Virus record (IMG/VR): IMGVR_UViG_2778261631_000002
DNA: 64,000 nucleotides
Reading direction: 5' to 3' (one strand)
Source: a virus
Taxonomy: Duplodnaviria > Heunggongvirae > Uroviricota > Caudoviricetes
In this document: positions 14,569-17,127 of the stretch, piece by piece
Layout: every line of letters starts with the position of its first letter
How positions within the stretch are numbered: position 1 is the stretch's first letter
The notes under the pieces: generated by a model
Told to the model about the DNA's origin: nothing
What the model saw: the letters and a program-made list of their open reading frames with translations, nothing else
The model's database searches: none
Program-made: the position numbers and the translations under genes

Positions 14569-15270
14569 TTATTCTGATTCTCGCTCAAAAAACGAGCTAA
14601 TGAGGGGAAGCCAATCCTCTGACACTTCGCGAGGCCGCGGTTTGCCGTGGAAAAAGATTATTCGGCAGTCCTTTGGTAATGTCCCATTCCCCCTGGAGTA
14701 ACGCGCGCTCGCATATTTTGAACCAGGTTCCACAACATCGGCCTTGTAACTTACAAACCATCCTGGATACAGATCCTGAAATGCTGGTGTATCATCGCCC
14801 ATAACCTTCCGTAAGAACCCCTGATCACCCCAGCACTCAGTAGTGACACAACGAGAAATCCAACCTTCCGGATCTTGCCAGAATGAACTCCAGATATGTG
14901 CTTTTACACTATTTGGTATCCACAGGGCACCGCTACCACGATATTGTGGATGGTAAAAATCCCTAAGCATGGTGAAGCTGGTTGGTGGATTCTCAAGGAT
15001 TGGGCGTATATCACCGGCAATAACTGTGTCCAAATCCAGATAGAACAGATCATCGGTTATATCCGGTCGGAACAACTCGATTTTCGCCCACCAGCCACGG
15101 CACTTTTGCCACTGGTTGATCAATGGGACAACTTTGACGCCAGGTACATGTAAACGCTTCAGGTCTGTCAGGCAAATAATTTCATAGCCTTTTGGCAGTT
15201 GATTAACCAGCCACTGCACATCGGAAGCGTTATAGTCACCACCAGAGCGAAGAACTAAAGCAATCTTCAT
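14569..15270 (-). CDS. Putative nucleotide-sugar transferase (GT-A-like, DxD motif)
   Basis: 233-aa ORF; FYLDLDTVI DxD motif; motif-level only. Confidence 0.45.
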
Positions 15271-15959
15271 GCTGCACCATCACCTTTCACTTTCATCAAT
15301 GTCAGGTTTCCGCAAAATACGGCACCAGTGTCGATATAATGCTGATTCCAGAATGTCTTCGGGCTTTTCACCGGAGTGTGACCAAAGATAAAACGATCTG
15401 CGCCAGAAATTTCGCCACCAATATCATCCATCGAATCACTGATACGCTCGCGCGCCCAGACAACGTTGAAAAGCGGCACCTCCTTACCGAATTGATATTC
15501 ATTATCCGGATAGTCGGCATGGGCTATAACGATAGTTTCTTGCCCGGTGTTCAACTCAATGATATAGGGCAGACGTCTTACCAGCTCCACCAGCACCCTG
15601 GCTAATATTTCCTGATCAGTGTCCAACATGAAGAACCATTGTCCACCATTCATTAGCCAGTTATTCACGTTGCCATCAGGACTTAACGCATCGAGCATCA
15701 ACCGCTCATGGTTCCCCATCACTGCCCTGAACCAGGGCATCTGCAATAGTTCCAGACATTCGACATTTTCAGTACCGCGATCGATAAGGTCGCCGACCGA
15801 TATCAGTAAATCCTGCGCCGGGTCAAAATCCACACGATGGAGTTCGGACATCAGTCTGGTGTAGCAACCATGCAGATCACCAACAACCCAGACATTCCTG
15901 TATTTGGTACCGTCGATACGGTGATAAATTGTGGGTGCCATCATGTATTCTTCAGCCAT
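15267..15959 (-). CDS. Ser/Thr protein phosphatase (calcineurin-like metallophosphatase)
   Basis: 230-aa ORF with GDLHG, GDLIDRG and GNHE motifs in canonical order. Confidence 0.8.
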
Positions 15960-16567
15960 TCTTTAAGAGTCATCTGCGGAATACCTCCCATTTTCCCGCA
16001 TGAAACAACGTCAATCTGTTCACGCGCAGACTGGAATAACAAAGGCAGGTGACTTAGATTTTTTGGCGTGCCGCCGGAGTGAACGCGTGGTTCTTGCGTA
16101 GCGTCAACGCCCACCAGGGCTACATGTTTGAATCCGATATGGAAAGCCAGGTTCAGAGCGCCATATGCACTATTGCCGCTGGCAATTTCATTCTCATCTT
16201 CGCAAAGTCCGAAATGTGCGGACCAGCGCCACGCCCACCAATCGGGAGAATTCGTATTTTTTGGCTCCATGCCACGTTCAGCCACACGACGGAAGCACAG
16301 AACGCCGTCTCTGACTTCACGTTCTTTAACATCGGGTAGTGCCATGCAATAACAAACACCACGGCGACGGCGGCCACGACCAACGCGCCGCATATTGTCT
16401 GGCGATGGATCAAGTGTGAAAAAATAAGAAGCGCGGTTCAGCCAGTCGATGGCCCCATTGACCGCTATAATCGGCACTCCGCGCGGCGCAACAAAGTTTG
16501 CGGCGCTTGGGCCACTGCCGACGATAATAACGCGATCACTGCCTCTAAATTTATTCTTGGGAAACAT
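15941..16567 (-). CDS. Rossmann-like protein, paralogue A (GSGPS motif; possible sugar or nucleotide transferase)
   Basis: 208-aa ORF; [10 protein letters not shown] ... IIAVNGA ... LVGVD; paralogous to the adjacent gene. Confidence 0.5.
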
Positions 16568-17127
16568 TGAATTGCACTGCTCCTACTTGCATTCAAAATA
16601 TGTAAATCTGCGTGTTTTTTGCGGGTATCCAGGAACTGCTGTTGCCATTTTGAAATAGACACCTGCGTTGGATTCCGTAGGGCTTGAGGGTGTGCTCCAT
16701 GCCAATGAAGGCCGTTTTGCAGAGAACAGTCATAGCCGACTAATACAACTACTTCAGCCCCTGATTCAGCCGCCAGACTGATAGCCTGCGCGCCGCTATT
16801 AACCCCTTCAGCCGGTCCACAATATCGCCTGAACTCCAACGAAAATGATTTCGCCGCCGCCAGGTTGGCTGTCACTTTGCGGAATCTCCCTCCCGGTATG
16901 GTGGATCCGTATTGCTTCCACCATGACAAATCACCGGCGTATAAGGCATAAATGTCATCGAACATCTGCCAGGAATTGTTAACCGCGATGATTGAACAGC
17001 CAGTTTTTTCTATAGCAGCACAGTCCTCACGAGTGAGTGACGGACCGCTACCGACACAAAAAACAGTCCTAGTCGCCCTGGGTGGTATGTTCATTCTCAG
17101 CTGCAAATTCAGCCTCCAGGCGAGCAT
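16465..17127 (-). CDS. Rossmann-like protein, paralogue B
   Basis: 220-aa ORF; VFCVGSGPS ... IIAVNNS ... LVGYD; tandem duplicate of 15941..16567. Confidence 0.5.
   Translation of the reverse strand: MLAWRLNLQLRMNIPPRATRTVFCVGSGPSLTREDCAAIEKTGCSIIAVNNSWQMFDDIYALYAGDLSWWKQYGSTIPGGRFRKVTANLAAAKSFSLEFRRYCGPAEGVNSGAQAISLAAESGAEVVVLVGYDCSLQNGLHWHGAHPQALRNPTQVSISKWQQQFLDTRKKHADLHILNASRSSAIQCFPRINLEAVIALLSSAVAQAPQTLLRRAECRL

What the first reader, a model, noticed from the sequence alone, without database searches (positions are those of the whole stretch)
14569..17127. Cluster of sugar-transferase-like enzymes, tandem paralogues and a Ser/Thr phosphatase, plus a GT-B glycosyltransferase after ban
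Four consecutive minus-strand genes encode a DxD-motif GT-A-like protein (14569..15270), a calcineurin-like phosphatase (15267..15959) and two paralogous Rossmann-like proteins sharing a GSGPS ... IAVN ... LVG(V/Y)D signature (15941..17127). A GT-B-like glycosyltransferase (23063..24061) ends the ban operon. This much glycosyl-transfer-like capacity suggests DNA, protein or cell-envelope modification, possibly for anti-restriction, superinfection exclusion or serotype conversion. The assignments are motif-level only.
Basis: partly seen in the sequence, partly recalled or inferred. Interest (0 to 1): 0.55.

Follow-up and report, generated by a model that had tools for sequence, protein, structure and literature searches.

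The report
Phage P1 sugar-transferase gene cassette
These are the already catalogued phage P1 genes pmgQ, ppp, pmgP, pmgO and dbn: four of them are predicted sugar-transferring enzymes that travel together in many phages of Gram-negative bacteria, they are dispensable in the laboratory, and what they put sugars onto is still unknown.

Summary
The window is a P1-like phage, 98-99% identical to P1 and RCS47.

The fold guesses hold up:
- PmgQ is a GT8-type GT-A glycosyltransferase (profile match to solved GT8 enzymes E 2e-8; AF2 pLDDT 95).
- Dbn carries the GT4 EX7E motif.
- Ppp is the λ phosphatase orthologue (E 5e-94).

Comparative genomics adds three points. pmgO-pmgP-pmgQ is a mobile cassette found in unrelated phages of Proteobacteria. 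dbn belongs to it, because all four genes are contiguous in coliphage EP_H11. ppp is a lineage-specific insertion.

All four enzymes are soluble, and P1's annotated C1 operators and late promoter place them in the lytic cycle. Published single deletions show no plaque defect and no change in anti-restriction.

RefSeq and PHROGs already carry most of these labels. DNA glycosylation and lysogenic serotype conversion are unlikely. I favour remodelling of the host LPS core over glycosylation of virion or other proteins, but neither is shown. Interest is moderate.

The parts
14569..15270 (-). pmgQ: GT8-like retaining GT-A glycosyltransferase, 233 aa, DxD at D79-D81, C-terminal FHGKPRP
   Evidence: ORF; P1 annotation. 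The family profile hits solved GT8 enzymes: 6mw5 E 2e-8, GlyE 7.7e-5, glycogenin about 1e-3. AF2 pLDDT 95.3. Foldseek best matches are 6mw5, glycogenin, LgtC and WbbM. PHROG 1962 is labelled 'glycosyltransferase'.
15267..15959 (-). ppp: lambda-type Mn-dependent Ser/Thr phosphatase, 230 aa. It is co-transcribed with the transferase cassette in P1 but is a lineage-specific insertion into it.
   Evidence: PDB 1g5b, E 5e-94, full length. Pfam Metallophos and PHROG 'NinI-like'. No homologue between pmgP and pmgQ in 19 of 25 non-identical viral loci, nor in Cronobacter phage JK004 by match coordinates.
15941..16567 (-). pmgP: MptE/Maf-like putative transferase, 208 aa, distant paralogue of PmgO
   Evidence: hhalign of A1 against A2: 98.2%, E 4.6e-14. 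41 of 46 family members hit Pfam PF01973 at E <= 0.01. PHROG 2111 (unknown function), plus a weak hit to PHROG 4603.
16465..17127 (-). pmgO: MptE/Maf/GT42-like putative ulosonic-acid-type transferase, 220 aa. The real start may be Met12, because the N-terminal 14-20 residues are unconserved.
17069..17224 (-). pmgN: small ORF at the head of the pmgN-pmgQ transcription unit, function unknown. CRISPRi on it reduced plating while its deletion did not, which may be a polar effect.
   Evidence: P1 annotation transferred; PMC10695390 table.
17268..17284 (+). C1 repressor operator Oppp (Op83), CATGCACTAATTAATTT, upstream of pmgN-pmgQ
   Evidence: Identical to the annotated P1 operator. It has 4 mismatches to the operator consensus, so the 3-mismatch scan did not find it.
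17297..17323 (-). Predicted sigma-70 promoter PpmgN inside the end of pmgM
   Evidence: Annotation transferred from P1. The simple consensus scan did not find it again.
17291..18117 (-). pmgM (VRR-NUC nuclease-like, 17291-17869) and pmgL (17872-18117): upstream genes of the same late transcription unit, not part of the transferase cassette outside P1-like phages
   Evidence: Pfam VRR_NUC, E 3e-4. PHROG 'Holliday junction resolvase'. Co-occurrence only in P1-like loci.
18206..18224 (-). Late (Lpa-dependent) promoter LPpmgL, in the divergent pmgL / gene 26 control region that also holds C1 operator O26 (18175-18191)
   Evidence: The region is 130 of 131 bases identical to P1. Annotation; operator match.
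23063..24061 (-). dbn: GT4-like (GT-B) glycosyltransferase, 332 aa, EX7E motif E248-E256. It is functionally linked to pmgO/P/Q although it lies 6 kb away, downstream of ban.
   Evidence: Pfam Glycos_transf_1, E 3.7e-5, below the threshold. E248 and E256 are invariant in 68 homologues. PDB profile hit 8xsg, E 5e-4. It is contiguous with PmgO-PmgP and PmgQ in phage EP_H11 and directly followed by a PmgQ homologue in 4 of 4 non-P1 viral contigs.
14502..14567 (.). C1 operators OpmgRb (14502-14518) and OpmgRa (14551-14567), which mark the start of the next unit (pmgR-pmgS) and so the downstream end of the pmgN-pmgQ unit
   Evidence: Operator matches; P1 annotation.

Best explanation
Shown or strongly supported. 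pmgO, pmgP, pmgQ and dbn encode four soluble cytoplasmic glycosyltransferase-type enzymes that form one mobile accessory module of phages infecting Proteobacteria. PmgO and PmgP are paralogues of the MptE/Maf/GT42 fold; E. coli's LPS-core Kdo III transferase WaaZ also matches that Pfam family, below its threshold. PmgQ is a GT8-type retaining transferase with a DxD motif, probably using a UDP-hexose. Dbn is a GT4-type enzyme with EX7E. In P1 the module has been split, with dbn behind ban, and interrupted by an unrelated lambda-type phosphatase gene, ppp. P1's annotated C1 operators and late promoter put it in the lytic cycle, not the lysogen.

Inferred. The enzymes act in sequence on host-made nucleotide sugars to build a short glycan on one cytoplasm-facing acceptor. 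CMP-Kdo would serve PmgO/PmgP and UDP-Glc or UDP-Gal would serve PmgQ and Dbn.

Best guess for the acceptor. It is the nascent host LPS core or another envelope glycolipid. Infected cells and their debris would then display an altered or capped core that no longer binds P1-type (core-specific) phages. That would limit superinfection and loss of progeny to debris.

My confidence that this is a glycan-building cassette is about 0.75-0.8. My confidence in the LPS-core acceptor is about 0.35. The overall figure refers to the full statement.
For: Enzyme identities:
- PmgQ.
- PmgO/PmgP.
- Dbn.
- Soluble proteins: no 19-residue window with Kyte-Doolittle hydropathy above 1.6.

Module:
- PmgQ follows PmgP in 25 of 25 non-identical viral loci, and PmgO precedes it in 21 of 25.
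- The four genes are contiguous as O-P-Dbn-Q in coliphage EP_H11.
- Dbn is directly followed by PmgQ in 4 of 4 non-P1 contigs.
- Dbn, PmgP, PmgQ and two PmgO copies lie within about 17 kb in a Serratia prophage region.

Link to LPS-core-type chemistry:
- E. coli WaaZ hits Pfam MptE-like, E 6.9e-7, sub-threshold.
- A second cassette type pairs a PmgO-like enzyme with a protein whose best solved relative is the heptosyltransferase WaaF (1psw, E 0.0024) and with a SAM methyltransferase.
- So every partner family (GT8, GT4, GT9-like, WaaZ-like) is one that builds the enterobacterial core on the cytoplasmic face. This last point is from my own knowledge of the waa locus, whose genes are listed.
- No nucleotide-sugar synthesis genes were seen beside the cassettes.
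- All phage hits are to phages of Gram-negative Proteobacteria, in a collection rich in phages of Gram-positive hosts.

Timing and other points:
- C1 operator and late promoter upstream in P1.
- A slot between the lysis genes and terminase in lambdoid prophages.
- From my own knowledge: P1 adsorbs to the LPS core glucose, and WaaZ overexpression truncates the outer core.
Against: - No acceptor is shown; all the evidence on that point is by analogy.
- Expression only during lytic growth leaves little time to replace LPS already on the surface.
- In phages D3 and PAJU2 the PmgO-like cassette lies among head and tail genes. The PAJU2 and Klebsiella phage Eowyn homologues are annotated 'structural protein', which points towards virions rather than LPS.
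- The closest solved relatives of PmgQ (Skp1 galactosyltransferase, glycogenin, GlyE) and of PmgO (Maf) all glycosylate proteins.
- PmgQ lacks the extra C-terminal region of WaaO/WaaJ: 233 aa against about 338 aa.
- hhalign of WaaZ against the PmgO and PmgP profiles gives only about 15% probability.
- Single deletions have no plaque phenotype on K-12.
- The MptE/TPK fold also includes pyrophosphokinases.
- None of the Pfam hits of PmgO, PmgP or Dbn reaches the curated threshold.
Confidence: 0.35

Rival explanations
1. Protein O-glycosylation. The cassette decorates a virion protein (capsid, tail or fibre) or another phage or host protein in the cytoplasm. A Maf-like enzyme would start on Ser/Thr and GT8 and GT4 enzymes would extend. 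This would resemble virion glycosylation in mycobacteriophages or heptosylation of autotransporters. Possible roles are virion stability, shielding, or take-over of the host.
For: - The cassette lies inside the head-tail gene block in D3 and PAJU2. The PAJU2 ORF010 and Eowyn homologues are annotated 'structural protein'.
- It sits in a late-operon slot next to terminase in lambdoid prophages.
- P7 annotators called the genes 'head morphogenesis'.
- A conserved basic protein, PHROG 1924 'minor tail protein', follows both cassette types in several prophages and could be an acceptor.
- Expression is late and cytoplasmic, where virions assemble.
Against: - The cassette moves between myo-, sipho- and podo-type phages with unrelated structural proteins, so a virion acceptor would have to be re-recognised each time.
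- PmgO, PmgP and PmgQ are not among the pmg-named proteins found in the P1 virion proteome, and no glycosylated P1 protein was found in the papers searched.
- P1 has no homologue of the PHROG 1924 protein.
- Deletions give normal plaques.
- The 'structural protein' labels were not verified here.
Confidence: 0.3
2. PmgO and PmgP are not glycosyltransferases. They would be MptE/TPK-like pyrophosphokinases or other nucleotide-dependent enzymes that make or alter a small molecule, such as an activated precursor or a signalling nucleotide. PmgQ and Dbn would act on that product or on something unrelated.
Against: - The best structural match, with the longest aligned stretch, is the transferase Maf, and the sialyltransferase families GT42 and GT29 also match.
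- The PmgO profile aligns co-linearly with both nucleotide-sugar motifs of Cst-II, GNGPSL and SG...GxD.
- The constant operon partners are GT8, GT4, GT9-like enzymes and small-molecule-type (Methyltransf_11/23) SAM methyltransferases.
- The Kdo transferase WaaZ matches the same Pfam family.
Confidence: 0.1
3. DNA glycosylation for anti-restriction, as with the T-even glucosyltransferases.
For: - The genes are expressed in the lytic cycle.
- dbn is co-transcribed with the replicative helicase gene ban.
- In one environmental myovirus contig the Dbn/PmgQ genes lie between gp32/UvsX and UvsW.
- In lambdoid prophages a DNA methyltransferase gene lies a few genes upstream.
Against: - No dCMP or dUMP hydroxymethylase or other hypermodification genes were seen beside any cassette.
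- Single deletions leave P1 anti-restriction unchanged (PMC9024508).
- From my own knowledge, P1 DNA is ordinary, restrictable, methylated DNA.
- The enzyme families (GT8, Maf-like) have no known members that act on DNA.
- The accompanying methyltransferases are of the small-molecule Methyltransf_11/23 type.
Confidence: 0.03
4. Lysogenic serotype conversion: modification of the O-antigen in lysogens to exclude superinfecting phages.
For: Temperate phages commonly carry glycan-modifying genes. The cassette occupies slots typical of accessory genes ('morons').
Against: - There are no membrane-spanning segments, whereas Gtr-type and O-acetylase systems are integral membrane proteins acting at the periplasmic face (family features from my own knowledge).
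- In P1 both units lie behind annotated C1 operators, so they should be silent in the lysogen.
- From my own knowledge, K-12 hosts lack O-antigen.
Confidence: 0.03
5. The phosphatase is an integral regulatory or catalytic partner of the transferases, for example by removing a phosphate from the acceptor or the product.
For: In P1, ppp overlaps both neighbours: 4 nt with pmgQ and 19 nt with pmgP. The three genes are therefore co-expressed and probably translationally coupled.
Against: - ppp lies between pmgP and pmgQ only in close P1 relatives, 6 of 25 loci. In about a dozen other loci the two genes abut or overlap directly, and this includes the P1-like Cronobacter phage JK004.
- Ppp is a full-length orthologue of the free-standing lambda phosphatase.
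Confidence: 0.05

Closest known systems
Enterobacterial LPS-core glycosyltransferases of the waa locus: WaaO/WaaJ (GT8), WaaG/WaaB (GT4), WaaZ (Kdo III transferase, GT73), WaaC/WaaF (GT9)
   Same: The same enzyme families occur together. They are soluble or peripheral cytoplasmic enzymes that use host CMP-Kdo, UDP-hexose and ADP-heptose. WaaZ hits the same Pfam family as PmgO/PmgP, sub-threshold. The partner in the type-B cassette is most like WaaF.
   Different: The P1 proteins are much shorter (PmgQ is 233 aa, WaaO/WaaJ about 338 aa) and only remotely similar. hhalign of WaaZ against PmgO/PmgP gives about 15% probability. They are phage-borne and expressed in the lytic cycle, and the acceptor is not known to be LPS.
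Maf flagellin glycosyltransferases and Campylobacter Cst-I/Cst-II sialyltransferases (GT42)
   Different: PmgO and PmgP consist of the core domain only (about 180-200 aa), without Maf's flanking domains or the Cst lid. They have their own conserved HWHGxH (PmgO) or LSHLP (PmgP) segment. The usual hosts make no nonulosonic acids (from my own knowledge), so the donor would have to be CMP-Kdo or something else.
GT8 protein-glycan transferases: Skp1 alpha-galactosyltransferase (6mw5), glycogenin, GlyE
   Same: GT-A fold, DxD motif, the C-terminal H-x-x-G-x-x-(K/R)-P segment, and a significant profile match.
   Different: Sequence identity is about 15%. PmgQ gets no hit at all in Pfam-A, which includes the GT8 family. 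The acceptor is unknown.
Phage glycan and DNA modification systems: GtrABC and Oac seroconversion, T4 alpha/beta-glucosyltransferases, mycobacteriophage virion glycosyltransferases
   Same: They are phage-encoded accessory glycosyltransferases that use host sugar nucleotides and are non-essential in the laboratory.
   Different: Gtr and Oac systems are membrane proteins expressed in lysogens. The T4 enzymes are GT-B enzymes that need hydroxymethylcytosine in DNA. The mycobacteriophage enzymes act in Gram-positive-type hosts. None of these systems combines two MptE-like enzymes with a GT8 and a GT4 enzyme. (These family features are from my own knowledge.)
Bacteriophage lambda Ser/Thr phosphatase (NinI, PDB 1g5b), for Ppp
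   Same: Full-length alignment, E 5e-94, with the GDLHG, GDLIDRG and GNHE metal-binding motifs.
   Different: The genomic position differs: inside the pmg operon here, in the nin region in lambda. Its physiological substrate is unknown in both phages.

Membership tests
GT8 (retaining GT-A glycosyltransferases), for PmgQ | GT-A nucleotide-sugar-binding fold | tested here: met
   AF2 model with pLDDT 95.3. The top 50 Foldseek PDB hits are almost all GT8 enzymes (6mw5, glycogenin, LgtC, GlyE, WbbM), E 1e-8 to 1e-6.
GT8, for PmgQ | DxD metal and nucleotide-sugar motif | tested here: met
   D79-L80-D81 is invariant in 56 homologues and aligns with the DAD motif of 6mw5 and glycogenin.
GT8, for PmgQ | C-terminal H-x-x-G-x-x-K-P-W segment, whose His is a metal ligand | tested here: met
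   FHGKPRP: H208, G209 and P213 are at least 90% conserved and P211 is invariant. The segment aligns with the glycogenin and 6mw5 C-terminal motif. Arg replaces Lys, and the Trp is not conserved.
GT8, for PmgQ | Match to the curated Pfam family at its gathering score | tested here: not met
   No Pfam or NCBIfam hit for the single sequence. Only the family profile reaches GT8 structures.
MptE-like / Maf / GT42 superfamily, for PmgO and PmgP | Core alpha/beta fold shared by Maf, MptE and Cst-I/II | tested here: met
MptE-like (Pfam PF01973) | Score at or above the gathering threshold of 34.6 bits | tested here: not met
   23.1 bits for PmgO and 20.9 bits for PmgP. However, 35 of 37 and 41 of 46 family members hit at E <= 0.01.
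GT42 sialyltransferases (Cst-I/II) | N-terminal G-N-G-P-S-L loop, plus the Asn and S-G ... G-x-D nucleotide-binding motifs | tested here: met
   GSGPSL, AVNN, NSG and GYD are invariant or nearly so. They align co-linearly with Cst-II residues 3-63 and 123-158, but at a weak E of 0.24.
GT42 sialyltransferases | Catalytic-base His (His188 in Cst-II) and a CMP-NeuAc donor | tested here: inconclusive
   The invariant H141 and H143 lie 8-10 residues after the GYD motif, not about 34 residues after it as in Cst-II. No residue-level structural superposition was available. From my own knowledge, E. coli K-12 makes no CMP-NeuAc.
GT73 / WaaZ Kdo transferases | Sequence relationship to WaaZ | tested here: inconclusive
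   WaaZ hits the same Pfam family, E 6.9e-7. Direct hhalign against the PmgO and PmgP profiles gives only about 15% probability, at the shared A..A..LG...G.D motif. NCBIfam WaaZ_KDO_III against PmgP gives E 0.11.
GT4 (retaining GT-B), for Dbn | E-x7-E motif in the C-terminal domain | tested here: met
   In HPESLGLTVLEAAMCG, E248 and E256 are invariant in 68 homologues. The segment aligns with the GT4-like structures 8xsg (E 5e-4) and 3c4q.
GT4, for Dbn | Pfam Glycos_transf_1 at its gathering score, and a two-domain GT-B fold | tested here: not met
   23.8 bits against a cut-off of 26.4. Only 17 of 68 members hit at E <= 0.01.
PPP-family metallophosphatase, lambda-PP type, for Ppp | GDxHG, GDxxDRG and GNHE motifs and full-length similarity to lambda PP | tested here: met
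   1g5b, E 5e-94, residues 11-229 against 3-221, with all three motifs aligned. Pfam Metallophos at 58.7 bits, above the 21.5 cut-off. NCBIfam PrpA and PrpB scores are below their equivalog cut-offs.
Seroconverting Gtr / O-acetylase systems | Integral membrane proteins expressed in the lysogen | tested here: not met
   The maximum 19-residue hydropathy is below 1.6 for all five proteins. C1 operators lie upstream.
T-even type DNA glucosyltransferase systems | Genes for a hydroxymethylated base (dCMP or dUMP hydroxymethylase) in the same phage | not tested
   None is annotated in the 21.6 kb of P1 examined, and none was seen beside the cassettes elsewhere. The whole genome was not scanned here.

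The most novel reading that the evidence does not exclude
The pmgO-pmgP-(dbn)-pmgQ module and its sister cassette (PmgO-like enzyme, heptosyltransferase-like enzyme, methyltransferase) may be a widespread and so far unstudied class of phage accessory systems. During lytic growth they would divert the host's own LPS-core sugar donors (CMP-Kdo, ADP-heptose, UDP-hexose) to build a new glycan. That glycan would either cap the LPS core, masking the receptor from the inside, or decorate virion proteins. The second case would be the first virion glycosylation known to me in phages of Gram-negative bacteria.
Probability: 0.3. Interest if true: 0.7.

Novelty: new member of a known kind. Interest (0 to 1): 0.4.

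Why it matters
P1 is one of the most used phages in genetics, yet about a fifth of its genes have no known role. Here five 'putative morphogenetic' or unknown genes resolve into one four-enzyme glycan-building module plus an unrelated phosphatase.

The same module, and a sister version built around the same PmgO-like enzyme, occurs in lambdoid, D3-like, rV5-sized and jumbo phages of Proteobacteria. Finding its acceptor would therefore explain a recurrent accessory function, whether that is receptor masking, exclusion of other phages or virion decoration. That matters for phage host range, for phage therapy cocktails, and for transduction efficiency.

As it stands, this is a well-supported annotation with a testable hypothesis, not a new mechanism.

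Tried and rejected
- Single-sequence searches of PmgQ, PmgO and Dbn against solved structures gave nothing significant. Family profiles were needed. The PmgP profile alone still found nothing in the PDB.
- PADLOC defence models gave no hits.
- A first scan of viral contigs with the PmgO alignment returned only near-identical P1 copies. I switched to alignments headed by distant homologues and to the one-genome-per-species collection.
- The afdb50 fold library was unavailable. The BFVD search returned only uncharacterised viral MptE-like proteins.
- hhalign of WaaZ against the PmgO and PmgP profiles was too weak to claim homology directly.
- The literature searches found no functional study of these genes, only essentiality screens. 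The P1 genome paper is not in the library.
- The simple promoter and terminator scan did not recover the annotated promoters and found no convincing terminator after pmgQ.
- I considered and rejected these readings: ppp as part of the module; lysogenic seroconversion; DNA glucosylation; and chance clustering of unrelated genes, which the conserved synteny in unrelated phages rules out.

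
Full report
**Identity of the region**

The 3.6 kb around the finding is 98-99% identical to phage P1 and its relatives RCS47, P7 and SJ46.
- pmgQ, 14569-15270
- ppp, 15267-15959
- pmgP, 15941-16567
- pmgO, 16465-17127
- dbn, 23063-24061, immediately downstream of ban at 24061-25431

The original GenBank record calls the pmg genes 'putative morphogenetic function' and dbn 'possible glycosyltransferase'. RefSeq already calls PmgQ 'glycosyltransferase', PmgO 'alpha-2,3-sialyltransferase' and Ppp 'metallophosphoesterase'. 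RCS47's Dbn is labelled 'glycosyltransferase family 4 protein'.

**PmgQ**

Alone, PmgQ hits no Pfam or NCBIfam model. Its best match among solved structures is weak: 6mw5, E 0.079.

An alignment of 56 homologues shows these features:
- an invariant D79-L80-D81
- conserved VLRSGG and GWWAK.ELF motifs
- a C-terminal FHG.PRP segment

A profile built from that alignment hits solved GT8 enzymes: Skp1 alpha-galactosyltransferase E 2e-8, GlyE 7.7e-5, glycogenin about 1e-3. The AF2 model is confident, with pLDDT 95.3. Its Foldseek neighbours are almost all GT8: 6mw5, glycogenin, LgtC, WbbM and GlyE. PmgQ is a compact GT8-type, DxD-dependent, retaining GT-A transferase.

**PmgO and PmgP**

Pairwise BLAST finds only the N-terminal GSGPS...IAVN stretch, E 0.004. 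Profiles of 37 and 46 homologues align over 165 columns with hhalign probability 98.2% and E 4.6e-14. The paralogy is real but old.

Both proteins hit Pfam MptE-like (PF01973) below its threshold. So do 35 of 37 and 41 of 46 family members.

- thiamine pyrophosphokinases and GT29 sialyltransferases at lower scores

The PmgO profile aligns co-linearly, though weakly, with both nucleotide-sugar motifs of Cst-II.

E. coli K-12 WaaZ, the LPS-core Kdo III transferase, also hits PF01973, E 6.9e-7. That gives a precedent in the host itself for a Kdo transferase that matches this Pfam family. Direct hhalign of WaaZ against the PmgO and PmgP profiles is too weak to claim more.

**Dbn and Ppp**

Dbn hits Glycos_transf_1 just under the threshold. 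In 68 homologues from the exhaustive search, E248 and E256 are invariant. They form the E-x7-E signature that aligns with GT4-like structures. The GT-B fold itself was not modelled.

Ppp is a full-length orthologue of lambda phosphatase: 1g5b, E 5e-94, with the GDLHG, GDLIDRG and GNHE motifs.

None of the five proteins has a membrane-spanning segment.

**What belongs together**

I scanned viral contigs with a PmgP alignment headed by distant homologues, then searched all ORFs with family HMMs. Across 25 non-identical loci:
- PmgQ lies downstream of PmgP in 25 of 25.
- PmgO lies upstream in 21 of 25.
- A Ppp homologue lies between them only in the 6 close P1 relatives.

In about a dozen other loci the PmgP and PmgQ ORFs abut or overlap. 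In the rest a gap of roughly 0.4-0.5 kb separates them, and in some loci this holds a small extra GT-A-like ORF. The P1-like Cronobacter phage JK004 also lacks ppp at this place. ppp is therefore an insertion into a conserved pmgO-pmgP-pmgQ cassette.

Dbn belongs to the same module:
- In coliphage EP_H11 the order is PmgO, PmgP, Dbn, PmgQ, contiguous on one strand.
- In 4 of 4 non-P1 viral contigs that carry a Dbn homologue, a PmgQ homologue follows it directly, and three have a second PmgQ paralogue.
- A Serratia prophage region holds Dbn, PmgP, PmgQ and two PmgO copies within about 17 kb.

P1 thus carries a split version of a four-transferase module.

**A sister cassette**

Most PmgO homologues in one-genome-per-species bacterial genomes at first looked solitary. 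In fact 13 of 23 loci have a PmgO-like gene followed by a 275-280 aa protein and a SAM methyltransferase of the small-molecule type. Two more loci are cut by contig ends.

The same triad occurs in three other places:
- Pseudomonas phage D3: orf7, orf12, orf13
- Pseudomonas phage PAJU2: ORF010-012
- a Hafnia prophage

The best solved relative of the 275-280 aa family is the ADP-heptose heptosyltransferase WaaF: 1psw, E 0.0024.

So the partners of PmgO-like enzymes are GT8, GT4, GT9-like enzymes and sugar-type methyltransferases. From my own knowledge of the waa locus (listed), these are the families that assemble the enterobacterial LPS core at the cytoplasmic face. No sugar-nucleotide synthesis genes accompany the cassettes. 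Every phage hit is to a phage of Gram-negative Proteobacteria. This fits dependence on host CMP-Kdo, ADP-heptose and UDP-hexose.

**Timing**

In P1 the pmgN-pmgQ unit lies behind the C1 operator Oppp, at window 17268-17284, which is identical to P1's. It also lies behind the late promoter LPpmgL, in a control region that is 130 of 131 bases identical to P1. dbn lies in the C1-controlled ban operon.

In lambdoid prophages the cassette sits between the lysis genes and the small terminase gene, in the Q-dependent late operon. In a podovirus-like contig it again follows the lysis genes.

By these annotated control elements, the module belongs to the lytic cycle and not to lysogenic conversion. No expression data were examined directly.

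**Published phenotypes**

In-frame deletions of pmgO, pmgP, pmgQ, dbn, ppp and pap gave no plaquing defect and no change in anti-restriction (PMC9024508, section 3.2 and supplement). CRISPRi knock-downs were likewise non-essential (PMC10695390).

Of the pmg-named proteins, only PmgC and PmgG were found in P1 virions.

No functional study of these genes was found.

**Interpretation**

I regard it as well supported, at about 0.75-0.8, that this is a multi-enzyme glycan-building cassette. The acceptor is not determined.

For the host LPS core or another envelope glycolipid:
- The enzyme-family repertoire matches that of core assembly.
- The cassettes depend on Gram-negative-specific donors.
- A universal acceptor would explain mobility between unrelated phages.
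- From my own knowledge, P1 uses the core as its receptor, and WaaZ overexpression truncates the outer core.

For a protein acceptor, especially a virion protein:
- The nearest solved relatives are Maf, the Skp1 GalT, glycogenin and GlyE, which all glycosylate proteins.
- The cassette lies among head and tail genes in D3 and PAJU2.
- Two homologues carry 'structural protein' labels, which I did not verify.
- The expression is late.

I put LPS or envelope at about 0.35, protein at about 0.3, a non-transferase role for PmgO/PmgP at about 0.1, and DNA modification and lysogenic seroconversion at about 0.03 each.

**Verdict**

At the gene level this is already catalogued. The added value is the definition of a conserved four-gene module and its sister cassette, and a concrete, testable hypothesis about donors and acceptors.

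Noticed in passing
window 12426-12932 (-), pap: The P1 'acid phosphatase' Pap matches the HAD-type 3'-phosphatase domain of polynucleotide kinase-phosphatase (Pfam HAD_PNKP, E 3.8e-12, above threshold; PHROG 'polynucleotide kinase'). Ppp also weakly matches the bacterial Pnkp phosphoesterase. A role in nucleic-acid end repair, rather than a generic acid phosphatase, may deserve a look.
   Followed up: no
window 17291-17869 (-), pmgM: PmgM, another 'putative morphogenetic' protein, is a VRR-NUC / Holliday-junction-resolvase-like nuclease (Pfam E 3e-4; PHROG 5702 E 6e-27). It travels with the cassette only in P1-like phages.
   Followed up: partly
window 17069-17127 and 16465-16567: The annotated pmgO start overlaps pmgN by 59 nt. 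The first 14-20 residues are unconserved and have pLDDT below 50, so Met12 (MNIPP...) may be the real start. The 103-nt overlap of pmgO with pmgP involves only PmgO's variable C-terminal tail.
   Followed up: partly
L270 (Escherichia phage EP_H11, OP688485.1), locus 4995-5633: The PmgP homologue is not annotated in the GenBank record, which has a gap between the CDSs at 4501-5037 and 5602-6570. HMM and tblastn searches find it.
   Followed up: yes
L271 (Pseudomonas phage D3), 5691-6409: The PmgO-like match spans 5855-6388, which covers part of annotated orf6.5 as well as orf7. The D3 gene model is probably split or starts too late.
   Followed up: no
L117 11191-11895; L267 9796-10437; L097, L099, L103: A basic protein of 213-234 aa (PHROG 1924, 'minor tail protein', no Pfam hit) follows both cassette types in several lambdoid prophages, just before the small terminase gene. 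It could be an acceptor or a partner. P1 has no homologue.
   Followed up: partly
L187 (environmental viral contig), 2845-6739: Methyltransferase, Dbn-like, PmgQ-like, a 240 aa unknown and a second PmgQ-like gene lie between gp32/UvsX-like and UvsW-like genes of a T4-like phage. This is a different genomic setting for the same enzymes.
   Followed up: partly
window 18210: The single difference from P1 in the 131-bp pmgL / gene 26 control region falls inside the annotated -10 hexamer of the late promoter LPpmgL, which is also the -35 of P2pmgL. Any effect on expression is unknown.
   Followed up: no
PMC10695390 table, pmgN (window 17069-17224): CRISPRi on pmgN reduced plating about 70-fold (scored 'E'), whereas the pmgN deletion is viable. 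pmgN heads the unit that contains the cassette. The downstream genes are individually non-essential, so a simple polar effect does not obviously explain this.
   Followed up: no
window 873-889, 3387-3403, 12410-12426, 28236-28263, 31769-31785, 47333-47349, 49003-49019: There are further matches to the C1 operator consensus across the window: 11 in all, against 0.39 expected. This is consistent with the dispersed C1 regulon of P1.
   Followed up: no
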